Origin: Escherichia coli
GTDB lineage: Bacteria > Pseudomonadota > Gammaproteobacteria > Enterobacterales > Enterobacteriaceae
NCBI GenBank assembly: GCA_025336685.1
Contig: GCA_025336685.1_4717.1
DNA length: 64,000 nucleotides
Reading direction: 5' to 3' (one strand)
The number at the start of each line of letters is the position of its first letter. The first letter of the stretch is position 1. The position numbers were made by a program, and so were the translations under genes. Shown in pieces: positions 4,461 through 17,320 of this stretch. A model generated the notes under the pieces. The model was not told where the DNA came from. It saw only the letters and a list, made by a program, of their open reading frames with translations, and did no database searches.

Positions 4461-5354
4461 TTATTCGGAAACGTTGTAACCGAACACCGCTTTACCGTAG
4501 GTGTGAGTACCGTCAGCTAATGACAGCACCAGCACGTGGTTGTACGTAGCGTTAACACCCTTGTCGGTAGACTCGGTGGTAGCACCGTTGTAGACGAAAG
4601 TAGCCGTTTGCAGATTGGCTTTCAGCTCGGTGATGATCTCATCACCCACACCCGTCTGCTCTTTGATCAGCGTGGTCAGGTTACCCGCCAGGCTTTCATC
4701 GATCTTGGTTTCATCACTGGTAATAGCTTGTAAACCTGCGGTGTAGGTGCTGAAGTCTAACGGATAGGTTAACAGACGCGCTGAGGTCTTGGTACCATCG
4801 CCTTCATCAACGTAGGTTAACTTACCCAGGTTGGTAACCTTGATGATGTTAGCCAGATCCAGCGTGGTGTTATAAACTTTAACTTCAACGGAACCGTACC
4901 AAGCCAGCGAATCTTCTTTGGCCTGCAGGGTGATCGTCTGGATACCATGATCGTCGAAGGTAACCGGCGTAGCTAACGTATCGGCTTTGATGTCTTTCGT
5001 TTTATCTAAGAACTTCTCACCGGAAGGCGTGATCATACCGTAGCGTTGAGCTACAAGGTCAACCACGTCACCAATAGTGGTGTTAGCATTAACGTTAACG
5101 CGTACGGCGATCTTCTGGAACCACTTAGCCAGATCCAGACGATGATAGGTAACATCGCGGTCATTGAAGTAAGGTGTACCTTCACCAGGGCTAAGCGTTA
5201 AAGTTGCATCTGGAGCAGAATCGCTTTTGGATTTAAGAACGTATTTAAGGTCGGTGGGTTTGAAGTTGGCACCAGTGTCGGCGTTGAGTGTGTTAATCTC
5301 ATCAACGATAAGTTGCCAAGGTGTTTTTAAAGTAAGTGATACTTGAGCTGTCAT
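4461..5354 (-). CDS. hypothetical (probable virion) protein, paralogue family B
   Basis: 297-aa ORF, ATG with GAGGT RBS; shares the (Y/W)YxR(I/V/L)xLxxx aromatic block and overall size with 16415..17320, 18237..19088, 19099..20034. Confidence 0.7.
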   Translation of the reverse strand: MTAQVSLTLKTPWQLIVDEINTLNADTGANFKPTDLKYVLKSKSDSAPDATLTLSPGEGTPYFNDRDVTYHRLDLAKWFQKIAVRVNVNANTTIGDVVDLVAQRYGMITPSGEKFLDKTKDIKADTLATPVTFDDHGIQTITLQAKEDSLAWYGSVEVKVYNTTLDLANIIKVTNLGKLTYVDEGDGTKTSARLLTYPLDFSTYTAGLQAITSDETKIDESLAGNLTTLIKEQTGVGDEIITELKANLQTATFVYNGATTESTDKGVNATYNHVLVLSLADGTHTYGKAVFGYNVSE

Positions 5355-5497
5355 TTTCTACCTCTATGGTTGTTACATCACTCTCAAAAGATGTAAGTGT
5401 TTACAGAAATCAATATATTTTATATTAAATGTGAATATTATGGAGAACGACTCCGACTCTCCTTTTCGACCATCAAAAAATCAGAGGATACATAATC

Positions 5498-6040
5498 ATG
5501 GCCTTAGACTTTAACAAAGCAGCGAAATCCCTTCTGCTTGATCTGATCAACACCAAAGCAACCCGCGCACTGTCCGAAGAAGAACTGCAGTTCGGTACTC
5601 CGGCGGCATCTTCCGAAAATGCTAAGAACACCGTTATCCAGCTGAATGCTGCGGCTGAAGCAGAAAACCTGCAGGGTACTCAGCAGTTCTACTACGATCG
5701 TCTGGCTCTGTCTGACGTTTTCGCTGATGTAACCAGCGATGTTACTTTCGAACTGCCGCACGGTACTGACAGCATTAAGGCTTCTGAGCTGGTAAGCAAG
5801 CTGGTCACCAAGTTCGGTCTGGCTTCCCTGACCGGTGAAATCAATGAAGAAACCTTCCAGCTGTCCGCAGGTACTGTTGGTCAGGTAACCCTGACTGCGA
5901 TCGAGGGTGGTATGGTATATACCGGTACTCTGCAGGTTGCCCTGACCTACGCAGCAGCACCGAAAGACAATCTGGCAACCGTTCTGGCGGATAACGTAGC
6001 TGATGGCTTCGTGAAACCTGAAGTTGCTGTCGTTGGCTAA
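5498..6040 (+). CDS. Ala-rich small protein with strong codon bias (probable abundant structural or decoration protein)
   Basis: 180-aa ORF, ATG with AGAGGA RBS; near-exclusive use of preferred enteric codons (ctg, gaa, ggt, aac, ttc). Confidence 0.75.
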   Translation: MALDFNKAAKSLLLDLINTKATRALSEEELQFGTPAASSENAKNTVIQLNAAAEAENLQGTQQFYYDRLALSDVFADVTSDVTFELPHGTDSIKASELVSKLVTKFGLASLTGEINEETFQLSAGTVGQVTLTAIEGGMVYTGTLQVALTYAAAPKDNLATVLADNVADGFVKPEVAVVG

Positions 6041-6050
6041 TAAACACATA

Positions 6051-6100
6051 GAGCAATAGTATGGGTTTTGTACAGCTCGGCTATTGCTCTTCTACAATTT
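6051..6100 (+). terminator. putative hairpin terminator after 5498..6040
   Basis: 9-bp inverted repeat GAGCAATAG...CTATTGCTC followed by a T-rich stretch, just after the TAATAA stop. Confidence 0.35.
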
Positions 6101-6239
6101 GGTTGTAACAATCTGCGTGGTTGCACGCTTATCTTTCTCATTGAACGCTTCGTATGAAGCGTGGTGTTGAAAGGGTTGTGGATCTCCTCAAGCGGCCAGG
6201 GACCCAGACCAACCTGAATAAACACAAACACATGTTAAG

Positions 6240-6272
6240 CCCCTCCTCAGCCCTTATCGGGTTGGGGAGGGG
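6240..6272. terminator. conserved hairpin element, degenerate copy
   Basis: CCCCTCC-TCAG-CCC-TTATC-GGG-TTGG-GGAGGGG between convergent genes 5498..6040 and 6336..6971. Confidence 0.4.
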
Positions 6273-6335
6273 TCTTATACGTCTTTATACGTTTCGTTCG
6301 TTCTGGTGTGTTTTAGAACGGTTTACAGCAGGGTT

Positions 6336-6971
6336 TTATTCAACACTGAAACCGTTCAAACAGATGGCTTCGTAACGTTTACGTTCACGGCGTTTGCGTG
6401 CCTGCCAACCGTAAATGAACTTCTCGTCTTTCTCACGACGTTCCGCTAATTCGATGTAATAGGTGCTCTGCATGTCCAGCATTGCATCGATGAGATAATC
6501 CTTACCGGTTGCGCCACGCTTAGCGATGTAGGCATCAAGAGCCGCCAGTGTTTTGGGACCCATTGCGCCATCAGCGTCGATATTTTTCCAGTAAGTTTGG
6601 CGGTTGTTCATGACGTTCAGATAACGCTGAAGGTTCTTAACCGGTACGGTTTTGCCTGCGTTGATACCCAGGTCAAAGAGACGATCAGCCAAGAACACGG
6701 AACGTTTCATGACCTCATCAAGCTTCATCTTATCCCAGAAGTGGGTCTTGTAGATGAAGAACGCCATTTCCGTGGTAAGGTTACGCATATTACCGTCCCA
6801 CCCGAATTTCGTTTTCAGCGTGGTTTTGTACTGATCCGCAAGCGCTTTCGTAATGCCGTGGTTCGTGATCCCACCAGAGTCATCGGGATCGTCGACGTAA
6901 CCTGCTTCGATGCTAGTTTTATCACGAATGATAAATTCGCAAGTAAAATCTTTTTCAGTAATCTTGGCCAT
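6336..6971 (-). CDS. endolysin, GH108-type peptidoglycan hydrolase with probable C-terminal PG-binding domain
   Basis: 211-aa ORF, GAGGAG RBS; N-terminal EAGYVDDPDDSGGITNHGIT matches the GH108 EGGYxxDPxDxGGxTxxGIT signature. Confidence 0.75.
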   Translation of the reverse strand: MAKITEKDFTCEFIIRDKTSIEAGYVDDPDDSGGITNHGITKALADQYKTTLKTKFGWDGNMRNLTTEMAFFIYKTHFWDKMKLDEVMKRSVFLADRLFDLGINAGKTVPVKNLQRYLNVMNNRQTYWKNIDADGAMGPKTLAALDAYIAKRGATGKDYLIDAMLDMQSTYYIELAERREKDEKFIYGWQARKRRERKRYEAICLNGFSVE

Positions 6972-7097
6972 TAGAACTCCTCGTTGGAATAACGTTTTAG
7001 AGGAATAGGGAAGCCCTAGAACGCGATAAACGATTTAATCCAGGCAAACACCAGACTAAACTTTTCTAAGCGTTAGAACGCGTTCTAGAGCGCAATA

Positions 7098-9146
7098 TCA
7101 AATACCTTTGGTTCCCTTCACGTGATGTGCAATTTCTTCAACCATTGCACGCAACGCACGAAGCTGCTGGTCGTGTTCGTACCAACCGCCCAACAGAACC
7201 CCGCTATACACCATGGTGTCAAGACTTAACAGTCCTTTATCTGATACGTTGATCATTTCCGGGAACTGTTCTTGAACACGCTGTGCGATGACACCGATCT
7301 TCTCTACATCAGGATCGTAGTTGTGACGGAAACGGGCAAGCCCGCTGCGCGCCATTTCACGTAAACGTTCGCTAAGAGATTCTGGATGGTCTTTCAGGTA
7401 ACGGATGTCATGTTTACTACGCTCATCTGAACGGATGTAAGCGTTAGGAACATCGATGTTACTGTTGAAGTACAGTGCGCTACCACCACCTGCAGAGTTA
7501 CCCCAATAGAAGCGTGTGATCTCCCCACCGCCATTTTCCGTGATGATAACATGTTTACCTAAACGCGTGCCACCATTGCCGTCAACGAAGACCAGTTTGT
7601 TTCCGCTGTAAGAACCCCAGAACAAACGTGTGTCGATGATGTGCGTTGCAGCGAGACGAGCGTTACGCGGTGTAGAATACACGGTGTTAACATCTTGCTG
7701 CGCTTGCGCATCGGAAGCGATACCGTAGTTCTGTACGTTCCCTAAACCTACCTGCGCTTTCGTAACAGCATGTGGGTTATCTCGACGGTTAGCGTGAGCG
7801 TTAACCAGATCGCCCGCCAGTTTTTGAATAGCCCAGTTGGTAGACTGTGGTGTCATGTAACGGTTCGTTGCAGAACCACCTTGCGCCTCAGCTTGGTTAG
7901 CGGTTGGGTAGTTCTCAACGCTTCCTAACCCCACTTGTGCTTTAGACACTTGGTGTGGGTTGTTCTTGTCAGCGATGTGTGCATTAAGCGGAACTAACGC
8001 AAAGGTCTCAATGGACGCTTTGGTTGTGTTCGGTGCCATTAATCGGTTAGCTGCAACACCGGCACGCGCTTCATCCTCAGACGCCATTGGGTAGTCTTGT
8101 ACATTCCCTAACCCAACCTGCGCTTTGGTTACCCTGTGTGGGTTGTTGTAATCGGCTTTATGTGCGTTAAGCGGAATCAATGCGAACTGTTCAATCGCTG
8201 CAACGGTACGCAACGGCGTCATGAAACGGTTGTTCGCGGTTCCGCCCTTCGCCTCGCTATCCGAAGCGGTAGGGAAGTTATCAACGTTCCCAAGGTTAAC
8301 CTGCGCTTTGGTGACGCTATGCGGGTTATCTTTACGGTTAGCGTGAGCATCGACTAGGTCACCAGCCAGTTTAGCGATTGCCCATCCAACCGTTTGTGCG
8401 GTCATGTACCGATCAGGTGCGGTACCGGCTTCTGACTCCGCCTTGTTTGCGGTAGGGTAGTTCTGTACGTTACCTAGTCCAACTTGGGCTTTGGTGGTTT
8501 CGTGTGGGTTATCGGTACGGTTAGCATGCGCGTAATGCAGATCGGTAAGATTTTTATCCGCTGCTTGCATGTCTTTGCGTAACTGATCGATTGCTGCCCA
8601 GAGACGGTTATCGGACGCAGCGTCGCCGATAAGTATCGCGGCTTTCAGTGAATAGATCGCTAAGCAAAGATGTTCGGTACCGTAGATAGCACTAACGTGG
8701 TGGATGTGTGGTTCAGGCGGATAAAGTTCCGGTTTGTTCTTGATGTCGTCCCAGTTGATCGGACGATCGTCAAGTTTGAGTTCTTCGATAGCCTGATATA
8801 ACGCGTCAATAAGACTTACGTAAACACCACCGATGATACGATAGTCGTTAACTAACGTACCCTCGATGTCATCGTTGATGATGGCGATAGCCGCACAGAT
8901 TTCTTTACCGGCGTAAAGCGTAGCGTCCTGATACAAGAAGATGGGTTTGTAGTCCACGCCTCGCACCAGTGTCTTACCGGTAAGCTTTTCAGTGATGACC
9001 AGACTTTCGGTGAAGAACGGTCCGCCGTCGAGGGCGTAACATTTATTCTCGGTTCGTGGAACGGTGTGCTCTTCACCAACGATGTGGTTGCTATCGAGCG
9101 TGCCGGTCCAGTCCTCGGGGTACTTCAGGGTAATTGGTGTTGACAT
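7098..9146 (-). CDS. tail fibre protein with C-terminal intramolecular-chaperone (S74-like) autoprocessing domain
   Basis: 682 aa; at least 4 tandem repeats of about 40 aa (NPHxVTKAQVGLGNVxNY...); C-terminal SDERSKHDIRYL matches the SDxRxK chaperone motif; N-terminus paralogous to 12825..14978. Confidence 0.8.
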   Translation of the reverse strand: MSTPITLKYPEDWTGTLDSNHIVGEEHTVPRTENKCYALDGGPFFTESLVITEKLTGKTLVRGVDYKPIFLYQDATLYAGKEICAAIAIINDDIEGTLVNDYRIIGGVYVSLIDALYQAIEELKLDDRPINWDDIKNKPELYPPEPHIHHVSAIYGTEHLCLAIYSLKAAILIGDAASDNRLWAAIDQLRKDMQAADKNLTDLHYAHANRTDNPHETTKAQVGLGNVQNYPTANKAESEAGTAPDRYMTAQTVGWAIAKLAGDLVDAHANRKDNPHSVTKAQVNLGNVDNFPTASDSEAKGGTANNRFMTPLRTVAAIEQFALIPLNAHKADYNNPHRVTKAQVGLGNVQDYPMASEDEARAGVAANRLMAPNTTKASIETFALVPLNAHIADKNNPHQVSKAQVGLGSVENYPTANQAEAQGGSATNRYMTPQSTNWAIQKLAGDLVNAHANRRDNPHAVTKAQVGLGNVQNYGIASDAQAQQDVNTVYSTPRNARLAATHIIDTRLFWGSYSGNKLVFVDGNGGTRLGKHVIITENGGGEITRFYWGNSAGGGSALYFNSNIDVPNAYIRSDERSKHDIRYLKDHPESLSERLREMARSGLARFRHNYDPDVEKIGVIAQRVQEQFPEMINVSDKGLLSLDTMVYSGVLLGGWYEHDQQLRALRAMVEEIAHHVKGTKGI

Positions 9147-9159
9147 AACCTGGAGGTCC

Positions 9160-11754
9160 TTATAACGTGACTGTACCTAATTTGGTTGTCTTATTGAGAT
9201 TGATGACAGAGATCTGGGTATCGCTGGTCGTAATCGTTCCGATGTTAACGCGCTGCCCTTTATCATCTTCTTGCTTGTGGATGGTTAACTCCAATTCTAA
9301 CTGGTTACCGTTAGGAACAACGGAAACGTACCACGTTTTATTACCTGGCGAACTATTATAGTCTTTTAGGTTATAATGGCCTTTAGGTAAAGTCATGGCC
9401 TTACCAGCAAACAAGCAAGCGATGTCTTCGTTGATGTAGATATCGTAACCGGAAGCAGCAACGACCGTAGAAACCATGTAGACATGTTTGACGGTACCTG
9501 CGAGGTATTCGGCTACGCTTGGCCCATATGCTCTGAATACCTGTCCGCCATTGGATAAACGGTACGCTTCCCCAAGGTCGACGTACCCCAGACCCCATAC
9601 CGGATGGACGTTGTAACGACGTCCGCTGCTGGCCAAATACTCATAAAGGTCATCTACCGATAACCCAACCCACGCACCACTGGCGTTCTTAGCACCACGG
9701 AATTGAAAATCGTTTGCGTTTCCTGGAGTAGCAACGCGCACGGACATCGCCCCGGCGATTAACCAACCATCAGCGCATTTACGATACCCTAATGGTCCCC
9801 ACGCCCCCAGAGTGTTGTCAATGTTATTGATTTGGTCCCGAAGCGTGTAAGTTACCGTTGTGATGACCCCCGTTACGGTAATGTTCCCTTCCCGAGCGCT
9901 GGTCGTCACTTCAGACGTCATGATAGCCGCCTTCCTGGAGACAGGATCGTACACCGATATGAACATCAAGCAGGGGGCCCCTGTGGACGCTGGAGGAACC
10001 ACGATAGAGCCGCGTATAACGGAGTATCTCTCAAGCTTCGGCGACGTGTAGGTATCCCAACAAAGTTTGGCCGCTCTGTCGAGTTCTGCCTGCGTGATGC
10101 TTATCGATGCCCCCTTTAAGGCTAACGTATCAGGGTCGACCTCAACCCTGCTGCTTAATCTCCCTTCCTGTAGCCAGCTGCCAGTCACTATCGTCTGGTC
10201 GTCGCTCATGTGAATTGTCGCGAAACGTTCGCTCACTGAACCGCCTACGTGGACGCGACTGGTTGGCGGGAATCCCATCACATCGACCACGCTGTTCTTA
10301 TAGCGATAACTCAAATCCCAATCAGCGGTTATTAACCGCTTTTCGAAATTGCTCTGACCCCCTGGGATGCGGGATAAGACATAGACCTTGTTCTTCGCCG
10401 TGAAGCCAACGAAGCCGTGTGGACCACAGGACCCAACAACGCGGTCCTTGATGTTAATCCAGTTCCCCGCCTCGTACGCGGATATTGGGGTGAGTTTTGC
10501 AAGTTCGTCGAAGACATTACCAGCGTAGTCACCAATGCGATACGATCGAACCATCGGCGAGGCCAGGTTATCATTCACACAGCTGGTAACCAGACCGTCC
10601 TCGCGAATGACCATGTTCCCGGTAAGGTTGGCCCCACCCCATACCCAGAATCCGTCTTTATAATCACGGTCACGAGTTGACATCGTACAAGGGCCACGAA
10701 AGGACACCGAACCATCGGAGTTCACTTGTAATGACGGTGTTCCAGCATTGGGACTTAATGTCCATTGCTTCGTATCCAGGTTCAAATCGACGTACCAGAT
10801 CGTTGTCCCCTGATCGGCGATATTCACGGTACTGTTAGTGTACCATGCCGTCGTGCAGTAGATTCGCGCAATGTTACCTTTTACAACAGCGTAATTTCTA
10901 ACACCCGCACGAATAGGGACAAGCGTCGTTAATTGACTAGGGTACGCTGTATGGTTTAACACTTCCCAGAAAAGAATATGGTCGAGGTTGGTTTTCGTCG
11001 TTCCCTCAAAAATCTTTCCACTAAACCCGGTTTCTTTGGTGAACTGTACGGCCGCACCATTTTTAATGTCCGATAACATACAGGTATGTACATCGAGCCC
11101 GTTTTTCCCTTCATACGCCCACCAGACTAACAGGTACACTTTGTTTTTGTAGACGAACGTACTACAGCGCGCCATGCTGTCGGTAATACCCTCTACCGAC
11201 CCGGTACACATGGCGGCGACATGCTTCTCTACGTTGAATGTGCCGTTAGTCAGAACGATGTAGGGCTGTGTGTTCTCGTCGTTTGCGTCCATCGCGACAC
11301 CCATCATCACGCCGTGGTTATGACACCAGACTGATTGTGGGATTTTAGGTAGTGCTGTAGGGTTGTACTGGCGACTGGTACCTATGGCGGTATCGAGCAG
11401 CCCTTCACCATTGTTTTTACAGATAGCGTAATACACCCCGTTTTTCATGCTGTTGGATGCAGAGCGAAGGATGGAAACACTCCCGTCTGCTTCCTGACAG
11501 ATTCCGTAGGTACGACGTTCGGTCATGGCTATCGCGCCATCAGCTGACCCTTCGATGGCGAGAGGGAAGTAACTTTGATCGCCAATTTGTTCGATATCGG
11601 TTACGTCAATATCAATGTACTTTTCCATCTCGGTGTTGAACTCTGCGGTGCTGTACGCGCCGAGATCGCCAGCCTTTAACCCTGTTGGATTGCTTCGACT
11701 AGCGATACGTTCGGTAACGCTGGTCACCAGTTCGCTAAATTTTTTCATTGCCAT
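9160..11754 (-). CDS. large tail-associated structural protein (possible tailspike or receptor-binding protein)
   Basis: 864-aa ORF, ATG with GAGGTG RBS, placed between two tail-fibre genes; no catalytic motif recognised. Confidence 0.65.
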   Translation of the reverse strand: MAMKKFSELVTSVTERIASRSNPTGLKAGDLGAYSTAEFNTEMEKYIDIDVTDIEQIGDQSYFPLAIEGSADGAIAMTERRTYGICQEADGSVSILRSASNSMKNGVYYAICKNNGEGLLDTAIGTSRQYNPTALPKIPQSVWCHNHGVMMGVAMDANDENTQPYIVLTNGTFNVEKHVAAMCTGSVEGITDSMARCSTFVYKNKVYLLVWWAYEGKNGLDVHTCMLSDIKNGAAVQFTKETGFSGKIFEGTTKTNLDHILFWEVLNHTAYPSQLTTLVPIRAGVRNYAVVKGNIARIYCTTAWYTNSTVNIADQGTTIWYVDLNLDTKQWTLSPNAGTPSLQVNSDGSVSFRGPCTMSTRDRDYKDGFWVWGGANLTGNMVIREDGLVTSCVNDNLASPMVRSYRIGDYAGNVFDELAKLTPISAYEAGNWINIKDRVVGSCGPHGFVGFTAKNKVYVLSRIPGGQSNFEKRLITADWDLSYRYKNSVVDVMGFPPTSRVHVGGSVSERFATIHMSDDQTIVTGSWLQEGRLSSRVEVDPDTLALKGASISITQAELDRAAKLCWDTYTSPKLERYSVIRGSIVVPPASTGAPCLMFISVYDPVSRKAAIMTSEVTTSAREGNITVTGVITTVTYTLRDQINNIDNTLGAWGPLGYRKCADGWLIAGAMSVRVATPGNANDFQFRGAKNASGAWVGLSVDDLYEYLASSGRRYNVHPVWGLGYVDLGEAYRLSNGGQVFRAYGPSVAEYLAGTVKHVYMVSTVVAASGYDIYINEDIACLFAGKAMTLPKGHYNLKDYNSSPGNKTWYVSVVPNGNQLELELTIHKQEDDKGQRVNIGTITTSDTQISVINLNKTTKLGTVTL

Positions 11755-11766
11755 TATTCACCTCAG

Positions 11767-12252
11767 TTAAATCGGCGAATCAGGTAATTGGCCATCGACA
11801 ATCTCGATAGTGGCCACTTTACATGTCGCAGCGAGATGTGCTGTGCCCTGAACTTTGTTCCAGGTACCGATACGCATCACGTTTTTATAGCTGCTGTTAC
11901 TGTCGCTCAATGTGTAAACAAAACCGTTATCCGTGACAGCAAGATAGATCCAACCGGTTGATGCGCTAACACCAGAAACATCCAACGTGGTCGCGGGAAC
12001 CGTTCCTGTTATCGTGTTGTATTCCGCTTCACCTTGGCCGATGCTGATCCTCCCGTTGTTGTAGCTGGCTGCTGGAATTATTTTATTTCGGCTGAAGAAA
12101 AGGAACGGAAGATAACGTTGTGTAACAAGAGGCGTAAGTTTAGGAGCCACTTCTGTCTTAGCGTACACGTTTGTCTGCGTCGTTGTTACTGAATGAGGAT
12201 TCTTCTTGGCCAGGTAGGCTCCCCATTCAGAAAGCAATGTCGATAACTTCAT
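11767..12252 (-). CDS. hypothetical protein in tail-fibre cluster
   Basis: 161-aa ORF tightly packed between fibre-cluster genes. Confidence 0.6.
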   Translation of the reverse strand: MKLSTLLSEWGAYLAKKNPHSVTTTQTNVYAKTEVAPKLTPLVTQRYLPFLFFSRNKIIPAASYNNGRISIGQGEAEYNTITGTVPATTLDVSGVSASTGWIYLAVTDNGFVYTLSDSNSSYKNVMRIGTWNKVQGTAHLAATCKVATIEIVDGQLPDSPI

Positions 12253-12256
12253 ACGG

Positions 12257-12766
12257 CTACCCCATGTAACGTTTTTGGCCGAGGATAAAGACCTTGTTAA
12301 GGACCACCGAGGTAATGCCTGACGCGTCGCAACTCACCTGCCCAACACGAATCGCTGTTGATGAATCAGCCCCAGCACTACTGTTCCAACTCCACCCGAC
12401 CGACCCACCTTTCTGATGAATAAACAGATAGCCGGTTTTGTTCGCCCAGTCGGAAGTAAGACTTTTGATGTCTAACGTTCCTTTCGCCAGAATATAGTCG
12501 GTACCGGCGATCATGACGGGTATTTCAGGATACGAGATTACCGTACCGCTAGCGGTAACGTTGCTGATGCGATCATTACGGATATCAGTGCAATCACCGA
12601 AATACGCTACGGGGAGTATCCCCTTAGGTAGCTTTTTGTCGATTTTCGTATCGACCGTGCTTTTATCGGGCGCGTCGATTTGCGCTGCAGTGACTTGGTT
12701 AGGGTTATCCTTCCTTGCGTACCATGTCGTCATGCGAGCACCCAATTCACTCATTTTTGTGCCCAT
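12257..12766 (-). CDS. small fibre-related protein
   Basis: ORF track 12257..12772 starts at GTG; ATG two codons in has AGGA RBS; contains NPNQVTAAQI resembling the fibre repeat. Confidence 0.6.
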   Translation of the reverse strand: MGTKMSELGARMTTWYARKDNPNQVTAAQIDAPDKSTVDTKIDKKLPKGILPVAYFGDCTDIRNDRISNVTASGTVISYPEIPVMIAGTDYILAKGTLDIKSLTSDWANKTGYLFIHQKGGSVGWSWNSSAGADSSTAIRVGQVSCDASGITSVVLNKVFILGQKRYMG

Positions 12767-12780
12767 TTTCACGTCCTATC

Positions 12781-12820
12781 GAAAAAATAAAAAGATGGAA
12801 AGGTGGGCAGAACCCACCCA
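12781..12820 (-). terminator. rho-independent-type terminator after tail fibre 12825..14978
   Basis: Minus-strand hairpin GGGTGGG-TTCTG-CCCACC followed by TTTCCATCTTTTTATTTTTT. Confidence 0.5.
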
Positions 12821-12824
12821 TCCG

Positions 12825-14978
12825 TTATAACGTTTCGAAGTCTTTTGCCTTGATGACTGCGTTGAAGTTGGCAAGGAATTCCTTAAGTAATGCTTGGAAA
12901 ACATCGCGGAACGCCGCGTTCGTCTTCAAGCTGGTTAAATAATCGTTCTTAAGGTAATCGCTAAGCTTACCGATCTTCTGCATCGTCACGCCTTCATCGT
13001 TCTCTCCGGGTTCTTGGCTATTGATATTAGCCCACTTGATCCCTTCGAGATCACCATCAGCAAGGAAGTTAGCTGGCGTCTCATCATCGTTCAGGATTTT
13101 GATCGTATCGCTGGATTCAATACCGCCGTAAGCTTCCAGAAGCTGGTTGACGGTCAACTTATTGACGTTGATTGAACCATTAGCACCATCGATACCGAGT
13201 CCGGTACCCGTGATAGACGTTACTGAAAGATCGATTGGTCCGGTTAACTTACCCCCATTGATAGGGAGCGCGCCAACCTGTTCGGCTGTGTGTGTATGAT
13301 CGGCTAACGCGGCGAACGCTGCAATCGACTTGTAAGTCGAGTACGGTGTCATGTACGCTGTCTGGTTAGTCCTGTCGGCAGCTTGCACGTCGGTGGCGAC
13401 AGCAAAGTCCTGTACGTTCCCTAACCCCACTTGTACCTTGGTTACTTCATGCGGGTTACTCTTATCGACAACGTGTGCCGCAAAACCATCACCTGCTAAA
13501 GCGATGATCGCTGCTTTTGTCGCAGCCGGTGTCATATAGCGGTTGGTCGCTACACCGGTTTGTGCTTCCACATCAGAAGCAACAGGGTAGTTCTCAACAC
13601 TCCCCAACCCAACCTGGGTTTTCGTTACCCTGTGTGGGTTCTCGGTATTTGCGATGTGACTACTGAACCCTTGACCAGCCATTTGCTCGATCGCGTAACG
13701 AACAAGTATTGGTGTCATGTACTTGTTGTTAACCTGACCATCGATCGCTTCTTGGGTAGTAGCAACCCCGAAGTTCTGCACGCTTCCCAGCCCAACCTGG
13801 GCTTTGGTAACACCATGTGGGTTATTGGTGTTACCGATATGTTCGGTTACGGTTGGGGTGATTAGCGCTGCGATAGCGGCGGCTGTGGTCGCAGGCGTCA
13901 TGTATTTGTTGTTAGCAACACCCGCACCAGCTTCCCCATTAGACGCTACACCGTAGTTCTGTACGTCCCCCAGCCCTACCTGGGCTTTCGTAACAGCGTG
14001 AGGGTTGTTATTATCCTCGGTATGGGTTGTTAACGTAGCGTTGACATGATCGATGCGTGTACTTAAGCCGTCCGTGATTGCCTTGATTGCTGCTCGTACA
14101 CCCGCTGGAGTCGTGTACAGATTAGTGGCTGTACCGGTAACGGTTGTATTATCATCGGCTACACCATAGTTCTCAACGTCCCCGAGTCCCACCTGGGCTT
14201 TGGTCACCTTGTGTGGGTTGTTGCGGTTACTGATGTGTGCGGCAGCACTATCACCACTAAGGTTAGCGATCATCTTACGTGTCATCGCCAACGTCATGTA
14301 CAGATTTTCACCGACAGTTTCCAGATCGCTCTCGGTCGCTGTTGTGAAGTTCTGTACATTCCCCAACCCAACTTGGGCTTTCGTGACGCCATGGGGATTA
14401 TCACGTCGATTCTCGTGCTGCACTAACGCAGTCATTGCTTTATTGAACCCTTCTTCAAGCGGTCCTTTCAATGACTCGATTGCAGCCACCACATCGTCCC
14501 ACGTCATCGTGTCGGTTTCGACATTATGTTGGTGGTTGATTGGTGGGAATACGGAAGGAACGTCAGCAACCTTTTCCCAGAACGTAACGCGAGGGTCATA
14601 AAGGTTGTTGGCTAAAACGTTAAGAATTTGTTGTTGATCAAGTGTAAACTCACCCCCCAGTGAATAGTAGTTCAGTTGCAACTGTCCACTGAATGCGGTG
14701 TCCAACAGCATGATGGAACCGTATAATTCCAGGCCGGTCAGCGCAGCCATGGCACGGAAGGGGTGAGTGCATAAAAAGTCAACGCCTTCTTCCAGATACG
14801 CGTTTGTTTCAGGGTTGTAGATCTTTAACCCATTACGAAAATAGGGTGCGTATTTAGGAACGAGAAAGTTAAATCCGGTCCCCGTGGAAGGACGGACAGT
14901 GACGAGTTCTTCTGGAACCCATGCGCCATCCAAATTCCCCTGCGGGTTATACGGAAGGCGTTTAATTTCATCTGTCAT
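12825..14978 (-). CDS. tail fibre protein (paralogue of 7098..9146, no chaperone domain)
   Basis: 717 aa; at least 6 tandem NPHxVTKAQVGLG(N/D/S)V(Q/E)N(Y/F) repeats; N-terminal 200 aa alignable with 7098..9146. Confidence 0.8.
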   Translation of the reverse strand: MTDEIKRLPYNPQGNLDGAWVPEELVTVRPSTGTGFNFLVPKYAPYFRNGLKIYNPETNAYLEEGVDFLCTHPFRAMAALTGLELYGSIMLLDTAFSGQLQLNYYSLGGEFTLDQQQILNVLANNLYDPRVTFWEKVADVPSVFPPINHQHNVETDTMTWDDVVAAIESLKGPLEEGFNKAMTALVQHENRRDNPHGVTKAQVGLGNVQNFTTATESDLETVGENLYMTLAMTRKMIANLSGDSAAAHISNRNNPHKVTKAQVGLGDVENYGVADDNTTVTGTATNLYTTPAGVRAAIKAITDGLSTRIDHVNATLTTHTEDNNNPHAVTKAQVGLGDVQNYGVASNGEAGAGVANNKYMTPATTAAAIAALITPTVTEHIGNTNNPHGVTKAQVGLGSVQNFGVATTQEAIDGQVNNKYMTPILVRYAIEQMAGQGFSSHIANTENPHRVTKTQVGLGSVENYPVASDVEAQTGVATNRYMTPAATKAAIIALAGDGFAAHVVDKSNPHEVTKVQVGLGNVQDFAVATDVQAADRTNQTAYMTPYSTYKSIAAFAALADHTHTAEQVGALPINGGKLTGPIDLSVTSITGTGLGIDGANGSINVNKLTVNQLLEAYGGIESSDTIKILNDDETPANFLADGDLEGIKWANINSQEPGENDEGVTMQKIGKLSDYLKNDYLTSLKTNAAFRDVFQALLKEFLANFNAVIKAKDFETL

Positions 14979-15082: not shown

Positions 15083-16363
15083 ATGTATACATTGGTAAAA
15101 ACTTACGGATTACCCGTAGGTTCTGGCACGGCCTGGACAGCACTTGAGGCGGGTGAAAGTGTCCTGAGTACGTTGTTCTCAGCGTATCAAAAACTCAAGA
15201 TCCAGGTTCATGAAAGCTATGCTGACCAGCAACAAGTTATTGATCTGTACACATTTCAATCCGAGCTTCAAAACAGCAATGACACGCTCAATGCGTGGTT
15301 GAAAGCGAAATCGGATGCACATACCAACCTTCGAGGACAGCCTGGTGAGCTGTCGATTAAAACCCACAAGCTTTATTGCCATGACGTTATTACCGTAGGC
15401 TTTCTCCCTAAAGTCGGTAATAGTGGTTATCATCCGAGCAATGCGATCCCTGAGTCGGAACGTACCGATATCCTGTTGACGAAAGCGAATACGAATTACG
15501 AAAATATCGGCAAACATTGCTTGTTCACCGTAGGCGGTTATATTCATCCTCATGTTTACGGTAAAGACGTTGGCGTCTATATCCAGGGTGGGTTCGAGAC
15601 AGCACAGCGTAGCCAAGAAAACGATATCGGCATGATTGATTTTAGCCGTATCGGGAGTTTGGAAATCCACGCCATCACAGAAGAGATGATTGCTGATTCC
15701 ACGAAGCTCTTGCCGTATAAGGACGAGATGTACTTACGGCTACCACGTAAGGTCGCCGAAGATGAAACCGTTGCGCTGGTGTTCGGGGGATATCTACACC
15801 TTCTTGACGATTGTTACACGATCGTTAGTGACACGACGGCAAAAATAAACTGCAGAAACATGTTTCTGTATGAAAGATACTTCCGCTCCCGCAAATACCT
15901 TGATTTAACGTCTCTTGGTATTCTGTTGAACGAAGAAGACCCGCAGTCCGATATTGTTGCCAATCGTTTACTGTCTGATAAGACTTTAAAAGCATGGGTG
16001 ACGCATCCCTGCAGTTTCTGGGTGTATATCAAAGCAACATCGATTCAGGTTACACAAGAACCTTTACCACGAAGTGGCGTACCAGGACAATATTTCTTAG
16101 GTAAGAAACCGGAAGGACTGATTCGAGCCGATCTCGGTGAGTTACCGGCCTACGTGCAGACCTATGAAAAACCGTTATGGGTACTTCACTCACGCTGGGG
16201 GCTTCGTAAGAACATGTTGTTTGAAAACACATTGTACAAACATACACGCGTTAAGCGGCTTAACGATACGCCTTATCTTCACCAGGTCTGGTTGAAAACG
16301 CATGCGACGTTGCAGACAGTACATAAGCTCGAATTGATCGATTCCAGTCAGAAAAACAAATAA
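15083..16363 (+). CDS. hypothetical protein (426 aa)
   Basis: ORF with ATG and AGGGGG RBS; plus-strand island inside a minus-strand block. Confidence 0.7.
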   Translation: MYTLVKTYGLPVGSGTAWTALEAGESVLSTLFSAYQKLKIQVHESYADQQQVIDLYTFQSELQNSNDTLNAWLKAKSDAHTNLRGQPGELSIKTHKLYCHDVITVGFLPKVGNSGYHPSNAIPESERTDILLTKANTNYENIGKHCLFTVGGYIHPHVYGKDVGVYIQGGFETAQRSQENDIGMIDFSRIGSLEIHAITEEMIADSTKLLPYKDEMYLRLPRKVAEDETVALVFGGYLHLLDDCYTIVSDTTAKINCRNMFLYERYFRSRKYLDLTSLGILLNEEDPQSDIVANRLLSDKTLKAWVTHPCSFWVYIKATSIQVTQEPLPRSGVPGQYFLGKKPEGLIRADLGELPAYVQTYEKPLWVLHSRWGLRKNMLFENTLYKHTRVKRLNDTPYLHQVWLKTHATLQTVHKLELIDSSQKNK

Positions 16364-16414: not shown

Positions 16415-17320
16415 TTATGCCACGTATAACGTTAGATAACCGTCGATGAGCGTATTCATAACACTGAGTTGAAGTACAACAGCTTTACGAGCGTCTGTAC
16501 GTACACCAAATGGTAGTGTTTTGAAATGCTCTGGATCGGCTATTACTCTCGCATTCTGCAAGTTGAGCGGTCCAGGCGTTGCCGACAATACCCAGCGATC
16601 GTTGGCCGTAAGACCATCGATCTCTTCAGAGAGACCCAATTGCAGCATGTTCATTTCTGCAATTAGCGCCTCTGATTGCATATCACCTGAGGTTAACGTA
16701 TACCCATCAGTAAGTGACGCTAGAACATCATCAGACATGAACCAGTTGTACGAAACAATAGCGCCCGGGAGTTTATCACTATCTCGATCGATGAGATAAT
16801 TCAACCCAGCCAACATATTGTTGCGAATGAGGTTGTTGAGGTCGTTATGTCCTGAAGTTAACTCAACAAGTAATTGACCAACCCATACTTGGTTACCAGG
16901 TTTAGGTGTTATCGCAACATGTATCGGTGATTTGGATTTATCCAGATCCGCGTCGACAATCTCGGTTTTATTGAGAAGGATACCGTACGTTGATGCTAAG
17001 ACAGGTAATATCTCAGAGACCTTGGTTAGTGTATCTAAGGTTTCGATCTCGATGGGCCAGCGGTGCTGTCCGCCAGGCCAAATACCCAGTTTACCAAGAT
17101 CGACGCGGTTATAATAGATGTCGACAGAGTTCACCAGCCCTGAACCCGGTTGGGGATGCACGGTTAACTTGCTGTTACGCTTGTACCCTGTGCTTTCAGA
17201 AGCCTCACCGATAACCAGTTTATCCAGCGTTACGCCTCGAGCGTCGAAATCGCTATGCTTTCGAATCAGCCGAAAGAGGATTTCTTTCGATTCTAACCCT
17301 AGGATTTCACTGTACTCCAT
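16415..17320 (-). CDS. hypothetical (probable virion) protein, paralogue family B
   Basis: 301 aa, ATG with AGGGGTG RBS; YYNRVDLGKL block shared with family B. Confidence 0.7.
   Translation of the reverse strand: MEYSEILGLESKEILFRLIRKHSDFDARGVTLDKLVIGEASESTGYKRNSKLTVHPQPGSGLVNSVDIYYNRVDLGKLGIWPGGQHRWPIEIETLDTLTKVSEILPVLASTYGILLNKTEIVDADLDKSKSPIHVAITPKPGNQVWVGQLLVELTSGHNDLNNLIRNNMLAGLNYLIDRDSDKLPGAIVSYNWFMSDDVLASLTDGYTLTSGDMQSEALIAEMNMLQLGLSEEIDGLTANDRWVLSATPGPLNLQNARVIADPEHFKTLPFGVRTDARKAVVLQLSVMNTLIDGYLTLYVA

What the first reader, a model, noticed from the sequence alone, without database searches (positions are those of the whole stretch)
7098..14978. Tail-fibre cluster with two paralogous repeat-built fibres, only one with a C-terminal chaperone domain
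7098..9146 and 12825..14978 share an N-terminal domain and tandem 40-aa repeats (NPHxVTKAQVGLGNVxNY/F) that are also near-identical at the DNA level (gggtt..ccacac..aaagc.caggt-type units), giving substrates for recombination and repeat-number change. Only the first ends in an SDERSK (SDxRxK) intramolecular-chaperone motif, which implies self-cleavage after trimerisation. The second fibre has an unrelated C-terminus and is followed by a small NPNQVTAAQI-containing protein (12257..12766) that could be a separately encoded tip or adaptor. The 864-aa protein between them may be the receptor-binding spike.
Basis: partly seen in the sequence, partly recalled or inferred. Interest (0 to 1): 0.6.

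Follow-up and report, generated by a model that had tools for sequence, protein, structure and literature searches.

The report
Jumbo-phage peripheral tail-fibre gene cluster
This is the tail-fibre gene cluster of a Goslar-like jumbo phage: two related repeat-built fibres plus three smaller "headless" partner proteins. It is a new member of a fibre family already known from phage phiKZ, not a new kind of system.

Summary
The ORFs are real and the cluster is a tail-fibre module, but two details of the observation are wrong. The window is about 90% identical to Escherichia phage Goslar (gp024-gp030). The two fibres (682 and 717 aa) share a deeply diverged N-terminal domain and a tandem repeat. 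The repeat period is 61 aa, not 40, with 5 and 6 copies. The units are not near-identical in DNA: mean 52% identity, longest exact match 17 nt. Copy number is the same in four relatives.

Only the 682-aa fibre has a Peptidase_S74 chaperone domain (26.1 bits, cut-off 22; Ser573/Lys578). Both fibres are homologues of phiKZ gp131/133/134/135, and the divergent neighbour is the gp130 docking protein.

New here: three proteins, not one, start with a shared ~55-aa half-repeat module and lack the anchoring domain (169, 161 and 864 aa). The two small ones are paralogues, and the 169-aa one models as a receptor-binding-protein "shoulder" fold. The 864-aa protein carries a sialidase/lectin-like beta-propeller and is a mosaic against Goslar: ends 82-100% identical, centre 22-62%. 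It is the likely specificity cassette.

How the parts assemble is inferred, not shown.

The parts
15083..16363 (+). 426-aa homologue of phiKZ gp130, the peripheral-baseplate protein under which the fibres dock; transcribed divergently from fibre f2 (Goslar gp030)
   Evidence: BLASTP against the KTN4 gp130 orthologue gives E 3e-26. It matches phrog_3337 at E 4.6e-83. It is 98% identical to Goslar gp030. The same divergent position is seen in KTN4, pEa_SNUABM_54 and PCH45. The role of gp130 comes from PMC13250141.
12825..14978 (-). Fibre f2, 717 aa (Goslar gp029). It has a gp131-like N-domain (14442..14978), six 61-aa repeats (13317..14441) and a 163-aa C-terminal region without S74 (12828..13316).
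   Evidence: It matches KTN4 gp131 at E 6e-44. The N-domain alone finds 287 jumbo-phage records. There is no Pfam hit even at E<=10 and no PDB sequence match for the C-terminus. Goslar gp029 is in virions at about 75 copies.
12782..12823 (-). Hairpin (12797..12823) followed by a T-rich run, between the f2 stop codon and the first headless gene; a possible attenuator
   Evidence: RNA fold gives -19.2 kcal/mol, z -3.77, and 0 of 200 shuffles fold as well. It is conserved in Goslar and L004. L003 has a different hairpin at the equivalent place. Its function is inferred only.
12257..12766 (-). p169 (Goslar gp028): N-module (12602..12766) plus a beta-sandwich; headless, meaning it has no gp131-like N-domain
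   Evidence: hhalign against the p169 family gives 97.4%, E 1.2e-11, over 128 columns. BLASTP against p169 gives E 2e-5. Goslar gp027 is in virions at about 14 copies.
9160..11754 (-). p864 (Goslar gp026): N-module (11590..11754), a variable beta-propeller and beta-sandwich cassette (9487..11514), and a conserved C-terminal 108 aa (9163..9486)
7098..9146 (-). Fibre f1, 682 aa (Goslar gp025). It has a gp131-like N-domain (8577..9146), five 61-aa repeats (7638..8552), a Gly-rich tip (7431..7637) and a Peptidase_S74 chaperone domain (7101..7430) with Ser573 and Lys578.
   Evidence: It aligns to the S16 gp37 tip and chaperone region in 6F45, including SDxRxK. The C-terminal part hits long-tail-fibre distal-subunit PHROGs. 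It is 98% identical to Goslar gp025, which is in virions at about 87 copies.

Best explanation
The region is the peripheral tail-fibre module of a Goslar-like, nucleus-forming jumbo phage (Chimalliviridae). It is orthologous to the phiKZ gp130-gp135 module.

Shown here:
- f2 and f1 are old paralogues. Each has a gp131-like N-terminal domain, a W..I...P..FPP..H.H linker, and a shaft of six or five 61-aa repeats.
- f1 ends in a small glycine-rich tip followed by an S74 intramolecular chaperone with the Ser-Lys dyad. f2 ends in an unrelated 163-aa domain.
- p169, p161 and p864 are paralogues that lack the anchoring domain. Each begins with a ~55-aa module (helix, NPxxVTxxQ, xYxKxExD helix). That module matches the last half-repeat before the distal domain in phiKZ gp131/133/134/135.
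- p169 and p161 add a beta-sandwich with a receptor-binding-protein shoulder / TssK-like fold (modelled for p169, inferred for p161 from homology). p864 carries a large sialidase/lectin-like beta-propeller cassette between conserved ends.

Inferred:
- f1 and f2 trimerise and dock beneath the gp130 homologue at the outer baseplate.
- The S74 domain of f1 drives trimer folding and then cuts itself off at Ser573 (74.8 kDa to 62.1 + 12.7 kDa).
- The three headless proteins join the fibre complex through their shared N-module.
- The p864 propeller reads the host surface glycan and sets host specificity by cassette exchange. Goslar needs the LPS outer core.
For: Identity of the locus:
- It is 89.6% identical in DNA to Goslar with the same gene order.

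Family:
- f2 matches the KTN4 gp131 orthologue at E 6e-44, and f1 matches gp135 and gp131 at E 2e-30 and 2e-28.
- p426 matches gp130 at E 3e-26.
- The layout is conserved: gp130-like gene, fibre, small headless protein, large headless protein, second fibre, lysin. It is seen in Erwinia pEa_SNUABM_54 and Serratia PCH45.

S74:
- Pfam scores 26.1 bits against a cut-off of 22.
- S573-D-E-R-S-K578 aligns with the same motif in S16 gp37.

Headless trio:
- hhalign gives 97.3% and 97.4%.
- The trio N-module profile matches gp131 residues 306-340 at E 1.4e-8.
- The trio is conserved in the distant relative L003.

Folds.

Specificity:
- p864 is a mosaic against Goslar.
- The f1 tip is swapped in L003.

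Literature:
- All five Goslar orthologues are in purified virions. gp25 is at about 87 copies and gp29 at about 75. gp26, gp27 and gp28 are at about 13-14 each and gp30 at about 18, all +/-50%.
- phiKZ has 12 fibres docked under gp130, with six gp131-like N-domains per site.
- phiKZ gp131-135 tolerate no transposon insertions.
- Goslar needs LPS outer-core GlcII.
Against: - No structure or interaction data exist for how f1, f2 and the trio join. The Goslar cryo-EM could not resolve the fibres.
- Virion abundance is about 6:1 (fibres to trio), which fits no simple 1:1 end-to-end model.
- The N-module is more conserved across genera than the f2 C-terminus. This argues against the trio docking on that C-terminus.
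- The p864 propeller matches are generic (4-11% identity). No catalytic or sugar-binding residues were identified, and phiKZ gp131C was not among the top matches.
- The S74 score is only 4 bits above the cut-off, and cleavage has not been observed.
Confidence: 0.75

Rival explanations
1. p169 and p161 are tail-fibre assembly chaperones of the Tfa or gp38 type for f2, which has no chaperone domain of its own. On this view they are not structural adaptors.
For: They are small ORFs directly downstream of a fibre that has no S74 domain. Some known chaperones stay bound to the fibre tip (own knowledge: S16 gp38, Mu Tfa).
Against: - They have no Pfam, NCBIfam or PHROG chaperone match, even at lenient thresholds.
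- The p169 model resembles receptor-binding-protein shoulder and TssK domains, not Tfa.
- Their N-module is a fibre-shaft half-repeat that they share with the 864-aa protein.
- The Goslar orthologues are in virions, equimolar with gp26.
- In L003 the f1-like gene lies between f2 and these genes.
Confidence: 0.1
2. The repeats are a contingency device. Recombination between near-identical units within and between the two fibre genes changes repeat number and fibre length.
For: Across the whole family the copy number ranges from about 4 to 29 per protein, so repeat number has changed over long evolutionary times.
Against: - Units are 52% identical in DNA on average, and the longest exact match is 17 nt.
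- Tandem Repeats Finder finds no array.
- Protein lengths are 682 and 717 aa in Goslar and L007, and 681 and 717 aa in L004.
- L003 still has 5 and 6 copies at 55-64% protein identity.
Confidence: 0.03
3. The three headless ORFs are decaying fragments of former full-length fibre genes, left behind after deletions of the 5' halves, and have no function now.
For: Their N-module corresponds to the last half-repeat of full-length phiKZ-type fibres. Some PHROG families fuse a fibre N-terminus to a p864-like body.
Against: - The ORFs are intact, with ribosome-binding sites and tight spacing.
- They are conserved in the same order across genera.
- The models are confident.
- The Goslar orthologues are detected in virions with 5-21 peptides each.
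Confidence: 0.02

Closest known systems
Escherichia phage vB_EcoM_Goslar gp024-gp030 (NC_048170)
   Same: The gene order and protein lengths are the same. Protein identities are f1 98%, f2 93%, p169 88% and p161 84%. gp025 is already annotated with Peptidase_S74. gp25 and gp29 are already labelled tail fibre in the 2026 cryo-EM preprint, and all are detected in virions.
   Different: p864 is only 52% identical overall. Its central ~680 aa have been replaced while both ends are kept. The Goslar literature has not described the 61-aa repeat, the shared N-module of gp26/27/28, or their folds.
phiKZ peripheral fibre module gp130-gp135 (PMC13250141; Sycheva et al. 2012 for gp131)
   Same: It has the same gp131-like N-domain, the same NPH-type repeats, the same terminal half-repeat before the distal domain, and a divergent gp130 neighbour. 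There are several paralogues in one cluster.
   Different: - phiKZ fibres have only 1-3 repeats and keep the distal domain on the same polypeptide.
- Here the shafts have 5-6 repeats.
- Three distal-type proteins are encoded separately, without the anchoring domain.
- One fibre has an S74 chaperone, which none of the gp131-135 orthologues compared here showed.
Endosialidase-type C-terminal intramolecular chaperone (Peptidase_S74; K1F endoNF, T5 pb1, S16 gp37)
   Same: It is a C-terminal ~110-aa domain that starts with S-D-x-R-x-K and follows a trimeric fibre tip. It has a profile match and aligns to S16 gp37.
   Different: The score is only just above the cut-off. The upstream tip is a ~70-aa Gly-rich segment rather than a triple beta-helix of known structure. 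Cleavage has not been shown.
Lactococcal phage p2 / 1358 receptor-binding-protein shoulder domain and T6SS TssK N-domain
   Different: Identity is 6-14%, and p169 has no neck or head domain. The match rests on a monomer model, and the oligomeric state and partner are unknown.

Membership tests
Peptidase_S74 intramolecular chaperone (f1) | Profile match above the curated threshold | tested here: met
   PF13884 matches aa 573-631, covering profile positions 1-56 of 58, at E 1.1e-5 and 26.1 bits against a cut-off of 22.
Peptidase_S74 intramolecular chaperone (f1) | Ser-Lys dyad in an S-D-x-R-x-K motif at the start of the domain | tested here: met
   S573-D-E-R-S-K578. It aligns with SSDRRIKKDI of S16 gp37 in 6F45. 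f2 has no such motif.
Peptidase_S74 intramolecular chaperone (f1) | Autoproteolytic release after trimerisation | not testable with these tools
   The predicted products are 62.1 and 12.7 kDa. The virion mass-spectrometry table gives no peptide positions.
phiKZ gp131-like peripheral fibre family (f1, f2) | gp131-like N-terminal domain | tested here: met
   The f2 N-domain alone gives tblastn E 4e-21 to the phiKZ-type gp131. Full-length BLASTP gives E 6e-44 for f2 and 2e-28 for f1.
phiKZ gp131-like peripheral fibre family (f1, f2) | Encoded next to a divergently transcribed gp130 homologue | tested here: met
   p426 matches gp130 at E 3e-26 and has the same divergent orientation.
phiKZ gp131-like peripheral fibre family (f1, f2) | Docked as six N-domains per site beneath gp130 | not testable with these tools
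   The Goslar peripheral baseplate is unresolved. Only monomer prediction was available.
phiKZ gp131 proper | C-terminal seven-bladed propeller on the same chain | tested here: not met
   The f1 and f2 C-termini are an S74 tip and an unrelated 163-aa domain. A propeller occurs on the separate p864, but phiKZ gp131C was not among its top structural matches.
Tail-fibre assembly chaperone (p169, p161) | Profile or fold match to Tfa / gp38-type chaperones | tested here: not met
Glycoside hydrolase / sialidase beta-propeller (p864) | Beta-propeller fold | tested here: met
Glycoside hydrolase / sialidase beta-propeller (p864) | Conserved catalytic residues or a family profile match | tested here: inconclusive
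   There is no Pfam or NCBIfam hit. Identity to the matches is 4-11%, and active-site residues were not mapped. It could be a lectin rather than an enzyme.
Recombining / phase-variable tandem repeat | Near-identical DNA units and copy-number polymorphism among close relatives | tested here: not met
   Mean DNA identity is 52% and the longest exact match is 17 nt. Copy number is the same in four relatives.

The most novel reading that the evidence does not exclude
p864, p161 and p169 are three paralogues that share an N-module and a beta-sandwich. They may co-fold 1:1:1 into a pseudo-symmetric heterotrimer, one per fibre site and about 12 per virion. That heterotrimer would carry a single glycan-binding propeller and would plug into the f1/f2 hexameric fibre base. 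This would be an asymmetric, separately encoded receptor-binding tip, parallel to the single-copy gp133/gp134/gp135 proposed for phiKZ.

What fits:
- The three Goslar orthologues are almost exactly equimolar in virions (12.8, 13.8 and 14.3 copies).
- They are close in number to the gp130 homologue, which is at 18 copies in Goslar against 12 in the phiKZ structure.

What does not fit well:
- Two other genera have only one small and one large headless protein.
- Six homotrimers of each protein would also fit the abundances within the stated error.
Probability: 0.25. Interest if true: 0.6.

Novelty: new member of a known kind. Interest (0 to 1): 0.3.

Why it matters
The tail fibres are the one part of chimallivirus virions that neither the Goslar nor the phiKZ cryo-EM studies could build, so host recognition in these phages remains open.

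This analysis provides:
- a parts list with domain boundaries;
- a correction of the repeat unit to 61 aa;
- evidence that the repeat is widespread but unmodelled, with 16,505 cluster representatives, no Pfam family and no solved structure;
- a specific, swappable cassette (p864 residues 81-756) as the likely specificity determinant.

That is useful for fitting models into the unresolved density and for host-range engineering. It does not reveal a new kind of system.

Tried and rejected
- Tandem Repeats Finder on the region found no array.
- The sigma-70 promoter and terminator scan gave no enrichment over shuffles and missed the hairpin after f2.
- NCBIfam gave no hits for any of the six proteins.
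- Pfam at E<=10 gave nothing credible for f2, p169, p161 or p864.
- PDB sequence searches for f2, p864 and the f2 C-terminus gave only chance-level hits, such as ribosomal L18e and a sorting nexin.
- I looked for gel-band or peptide evidence of f1 cleavage in the supplements of the Goslar genome paper. Nothing is held there.
- The first homologue search with p169 alone reached only close relatives. It had to be repeated with an alignment seeded from three other phages.
- Loci fetched by accession (L005, L006) were not visible to the Python sandbox. I passed them in through an alignment instead.
- I expected p864 to match the phiKZ gp131 C-terminal propeller. It did not appear among the top structural matches.
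- I considered and rejected an inversion or shufflon-type tip exchange. All genes are on one strand and no long repeats flank them.
Full report
**What the window is.** The stretch 7098..14978 matches Escherichia phage vB_EcoM_Goslar at 89.6% DNA identity over 74% of its length. Goslar is a nucleus-forming jumbo phage of the Chimalliviridae. Gene order and protein lengths are those of Goslar gp024-gp030. Protein identities to Goslar are listed below.
- f1 (682 aa): 98%
- f2 (717 aa): 93%
- p169: 88%
- p161: 84%
- endolysin: 95%
- p864: only 52%

An identical p864 lies on a 236-kb contig deposited as a Salmonella Enteritidis assembly, GCA_014829495.1. That contig is probably the source of the window.

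**Checking the observation.** All five ORFs lie on the minus strand at the stated coordinates. Transcription order is f2 (14978..12825), p169 (12766..12257), p161 (12252..11767), p864 (11754..9160), then f1 (9146..7098).
- The two fibres align at E 6e-87. Their N-terminal domains alone are 24% identical over 131 aa, E 3e-11. Their C-termini are unrelated.
- The repeat is real. A profile built from the units scores every copy at E 1e-27 to 1e-32.
- The period is 61 aa / 183 nt, not 40 aa. There are five copies in f1 and six in f2.
- The claim of near-identical DNA fails. Whole units average 52% nucleotide identity (maximum 64%). Third-position identity at conserved codons is 46%. The longest exact match between the two genes is 17 nt. 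Tandem Repeats Finder sees no array.
- Copy number is 5 and 6 in Goslar, L004, L007 and the distant relative L003, whose fibres are only 55-64% identical. The repeats are therefore old and stable in this lineage.
- Across the whole family the number varies from about 4 to 29 per protein. The repeat occurs in 16,505 cluster representatives.
- The repeat has no Pfam model and no sequence match in the PDB.

**The chaperone domain.** f1 matches Pfam Peptidase_S74 at residues 573-631, with E 1.1e-5 and 26.1 bits against a curated cut-off of 22. The domain begins with S573-D-E-R-S-K578. This aligns with the same motif in the Salmonella phage S16 gp37 tip and chaperone region, 6F45. The C-terminal 179 aa also hit several long-tail-fibre distal-subunit PHROGs. 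f2 has no such motif or match. If cleavage occurs at Ser573, the 74.8-kDa protein would give 62.1 and 12.7 kDa products. That step is inferred from established knowledge of the family, not shown here. The Goslar record already annotates this domain on gp025.

**Family assignment.** The N-domain of f2 finds 287 jumbo-phage records. In the phiKZ-type phage KTN4 the hit is the gp131 orthologue.
- f2 matches gp131 at E 6e-44.
- f1 matches gp135 at E 2e-30, gp131 at 2e-28, gp134 at 2e-22 and gp133 at 6e-20.
- The divergently transcribed p426 (15083..16363) matches gp130 at E 3e-26.

In the 2026 phiKZ structural atlas, twelve peripheral fibres dock beneath gp130. Each site holds six gp131-like N-domains, proposed as gp131x3 plus gp133, gp134 and gp135 (PMC13250141). 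gp131-135 tolerate no transposon insertions (PMC12676376). The cluster is therefore the Goslar-lineage version of a known fibre module. The Goslar cryo-EM preprint could not resolve the fibres but lists gp25 and gp29 as likely fibre components (10.64898/2026.04.21.720040).

**The three headless proteins.** In fact p169, p161 and p864 all begin with a homologous ~55-aa module.
- p161 against p169 gives E 2e-5, and p169 against p864 gives E 0.001.
- Profile-profile comparison of the p169 family with the p864 family gives 97.3%, E 2.2e-11, over residues 1-59.
- p161 is a paralogue of p169 over 128 columns: 97.4%, E 1.2e-11.
- The module matches only the first third of the 61-aa repeat.
- It matches best the last half-unit that precedes the distal domain in phiKZ gp131/133/134/135. 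One example is gp131 residues 306-340 at E 1.4e-8.
- None of the three has the gp131-like N-domain.

The same arrangement occurs in Erwinia phage pEa_SNUABM_54 and Serratia phage PCH45: gp130-like gene, fibre, small headless protein, large headless protein, second fibre, lysin. Those phages have only one small protein. The trio is conserved in L003.

**Folds.**
- The p169 model (pLDDT 82.8; beta domain above 85) is helix, loop with the NP motif, helix, then a beta-sandwich.
- The p864 model (pLDDT 72.6) has N-terminal helices, a beta-propeller at about residues 83-480 and beta-sandwich domains.
- No profile match or catalytic residues support enzyme activity, so a lectin role is equally possible.
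- The C-terminal ~85 aa of p864 are related to the p169 beta domain through phrog_3573.

**Where specificity lies.** Against Goslar gp026, p864 residues 1-80 are 82-90% identical, residues 81-756 are 22-62%, and residues 757-864 are 90-100%. The neighbouring genes are uniformly similar. This is the signature of cassette exchange between conserved flanks. In L003 the f1 orthologue keeps the N-domain and five repeats but has a different C-terminus without S74, so the f1 tip is also exchangeable. Genome-wide screens assign Goslar to the LPS outer core, GlcII (10.64898/2026.04.02.716166, supplement). That fits a glycan-reading tip.

- gp25: 87 copies
- gp29: 75
- gp26: 12.8
- gp27: 13.8
- gp28: 14.3
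- gp30: 18

The two fibres are about equimolar. The trio is almost exactly equimolar, roughly six-fold rarer than the fibres, and close to the gp130 homologue, which has 12 copies in phiKZ. This is compatible with one copy of each trio protein per fibre site, that is, a heterotrimer. Six homotrimers of each also fit within the error. A conserved hairpin with a T-run directly after the f2 stop (-19.2 kcal/mol, z -3.8) could lower expression of the trio. f1 lies further downstream yet is abundant, so it would need its own promoter. None was identified.

**Mechanism.**
- Shown: the domain architecture, the homologies, the predicted folds, the mosaic pattern and virion presence (the last from the literature).
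- Inferred: f1 and f2 trimerise and dock under the gp130 homologue. The S74 domain folds the f1 tip and then releases itself. The trio joins through its N-modules and presents the p864 propeller to LPS.
- Open: where the trio attaches. Its N-module is more conserved across genera than the f2 C-terminus, which argues against simple docking on that C-terminus.

**Rivals.**
- A chaperone role for p169 and p161 is unlikely, given their fold, their shared fibre module and their presence in virions.
- The recombination and copy-number idea is not supported.
- Gene decay is excluded by conservation and expression.

**Verdict.** This is a correct call of a tail-fibre cluster, with two factual errors in the details. 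It is a new member of a known kind, the phiKZ gp131-type peripheral fibre module, and its closest relative is already annotated. The added value is the corrected repeat, the recognition of the three-paralogue headless set, and the p864 specificity cassette. Interest is modest.

Noticed in passing
4461..5354 (-), 5498..6040 (+), 16415..17320 (-): Three DUF7941 paralogues flank the fibre cluster (Pfam E 2e-51, 2e-20 and 4e-53). Their Goslar orthologues gp22, gp23 and gp31 belong to the family proposed to form a filament cloud for host recognition. The whole ~4-17 kb stretch therefore looks like a host-recognition island.
   Followed up: partly
6336..6971 (-): A GH108 + PG_binding_3 endolysin lies directly downstream of f1. 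The Goslar orthologue gp024 is found in purified virions at an estimated 51-120 copies, which is unusual for a lysis enzyme and suggests a virion-associated role.
   Followed up: partly
12782..12823 (-): A stable hairpin with a T-rich run follows the f2 stop codon directly (-19.2 kcal/mol, z -3.8). It is conserved in Goslar and L004. L003 has a different hairpin at the equivalent place, before its trio. It may attenuate transcription of the three headless genes, which are about six-fold rarer in virions.
   Followed up: partly
L007 (GCA_014829495.1, contig VNCB01000001.1, 236,335 bp): An identical copy of this cluster sits on a phage-sized contig deposited as Salmonella enterica serovar Enteritidis. 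Related p864 and p169 alleles also carry Salmonella labels (Enteritidis, Panama). Goslar-like phages seem to travel with Salmonella isolates, whether as a carrier state, a host or contamination.
   Followed up: partly
L003 7014..8948 and gene order 4821..12595: In a distant relative the f1-like gene follows f2 directly, not after the 864-aa gene. It ends in an unrelated 135-aa C-terminus without S74. This shows both a gene rearrangement and a tip swap.
   Followed up: yes
Alignment A5; L005 5005..7689 and 7692..8282: Many p169 homologues, and both headless proteins of Erwinia phage pEa_SNUABM_54, end in a conserved tail resembling YRLSxxxxGGAIPVSTGxPxxxGxFxW (the 894-aa Erwinia protein carries a divergent form). 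The window's proteins lack it. Its role is unknown.
   Followed up: no
7638..8552 and 13317..14441 (-): The 61-aa fibre-shaft repeat is very widespread: 16,505 cluster representatives at E<=1e-3, with up to 29 copies per protein. It has no Pfam family and no solved structure by sequence.
   Followed up: partly
L002 11302..11634 (KTN4 orthologue of phiKZ gp132): phiKZ gp132 (110 aa) consists of little more than a single copy of the 61-aa repeat (E 9e-17 to the repeat profile). It is another free-standing shaft piece whose place in the fibre is unexplained.
   Followed up: no
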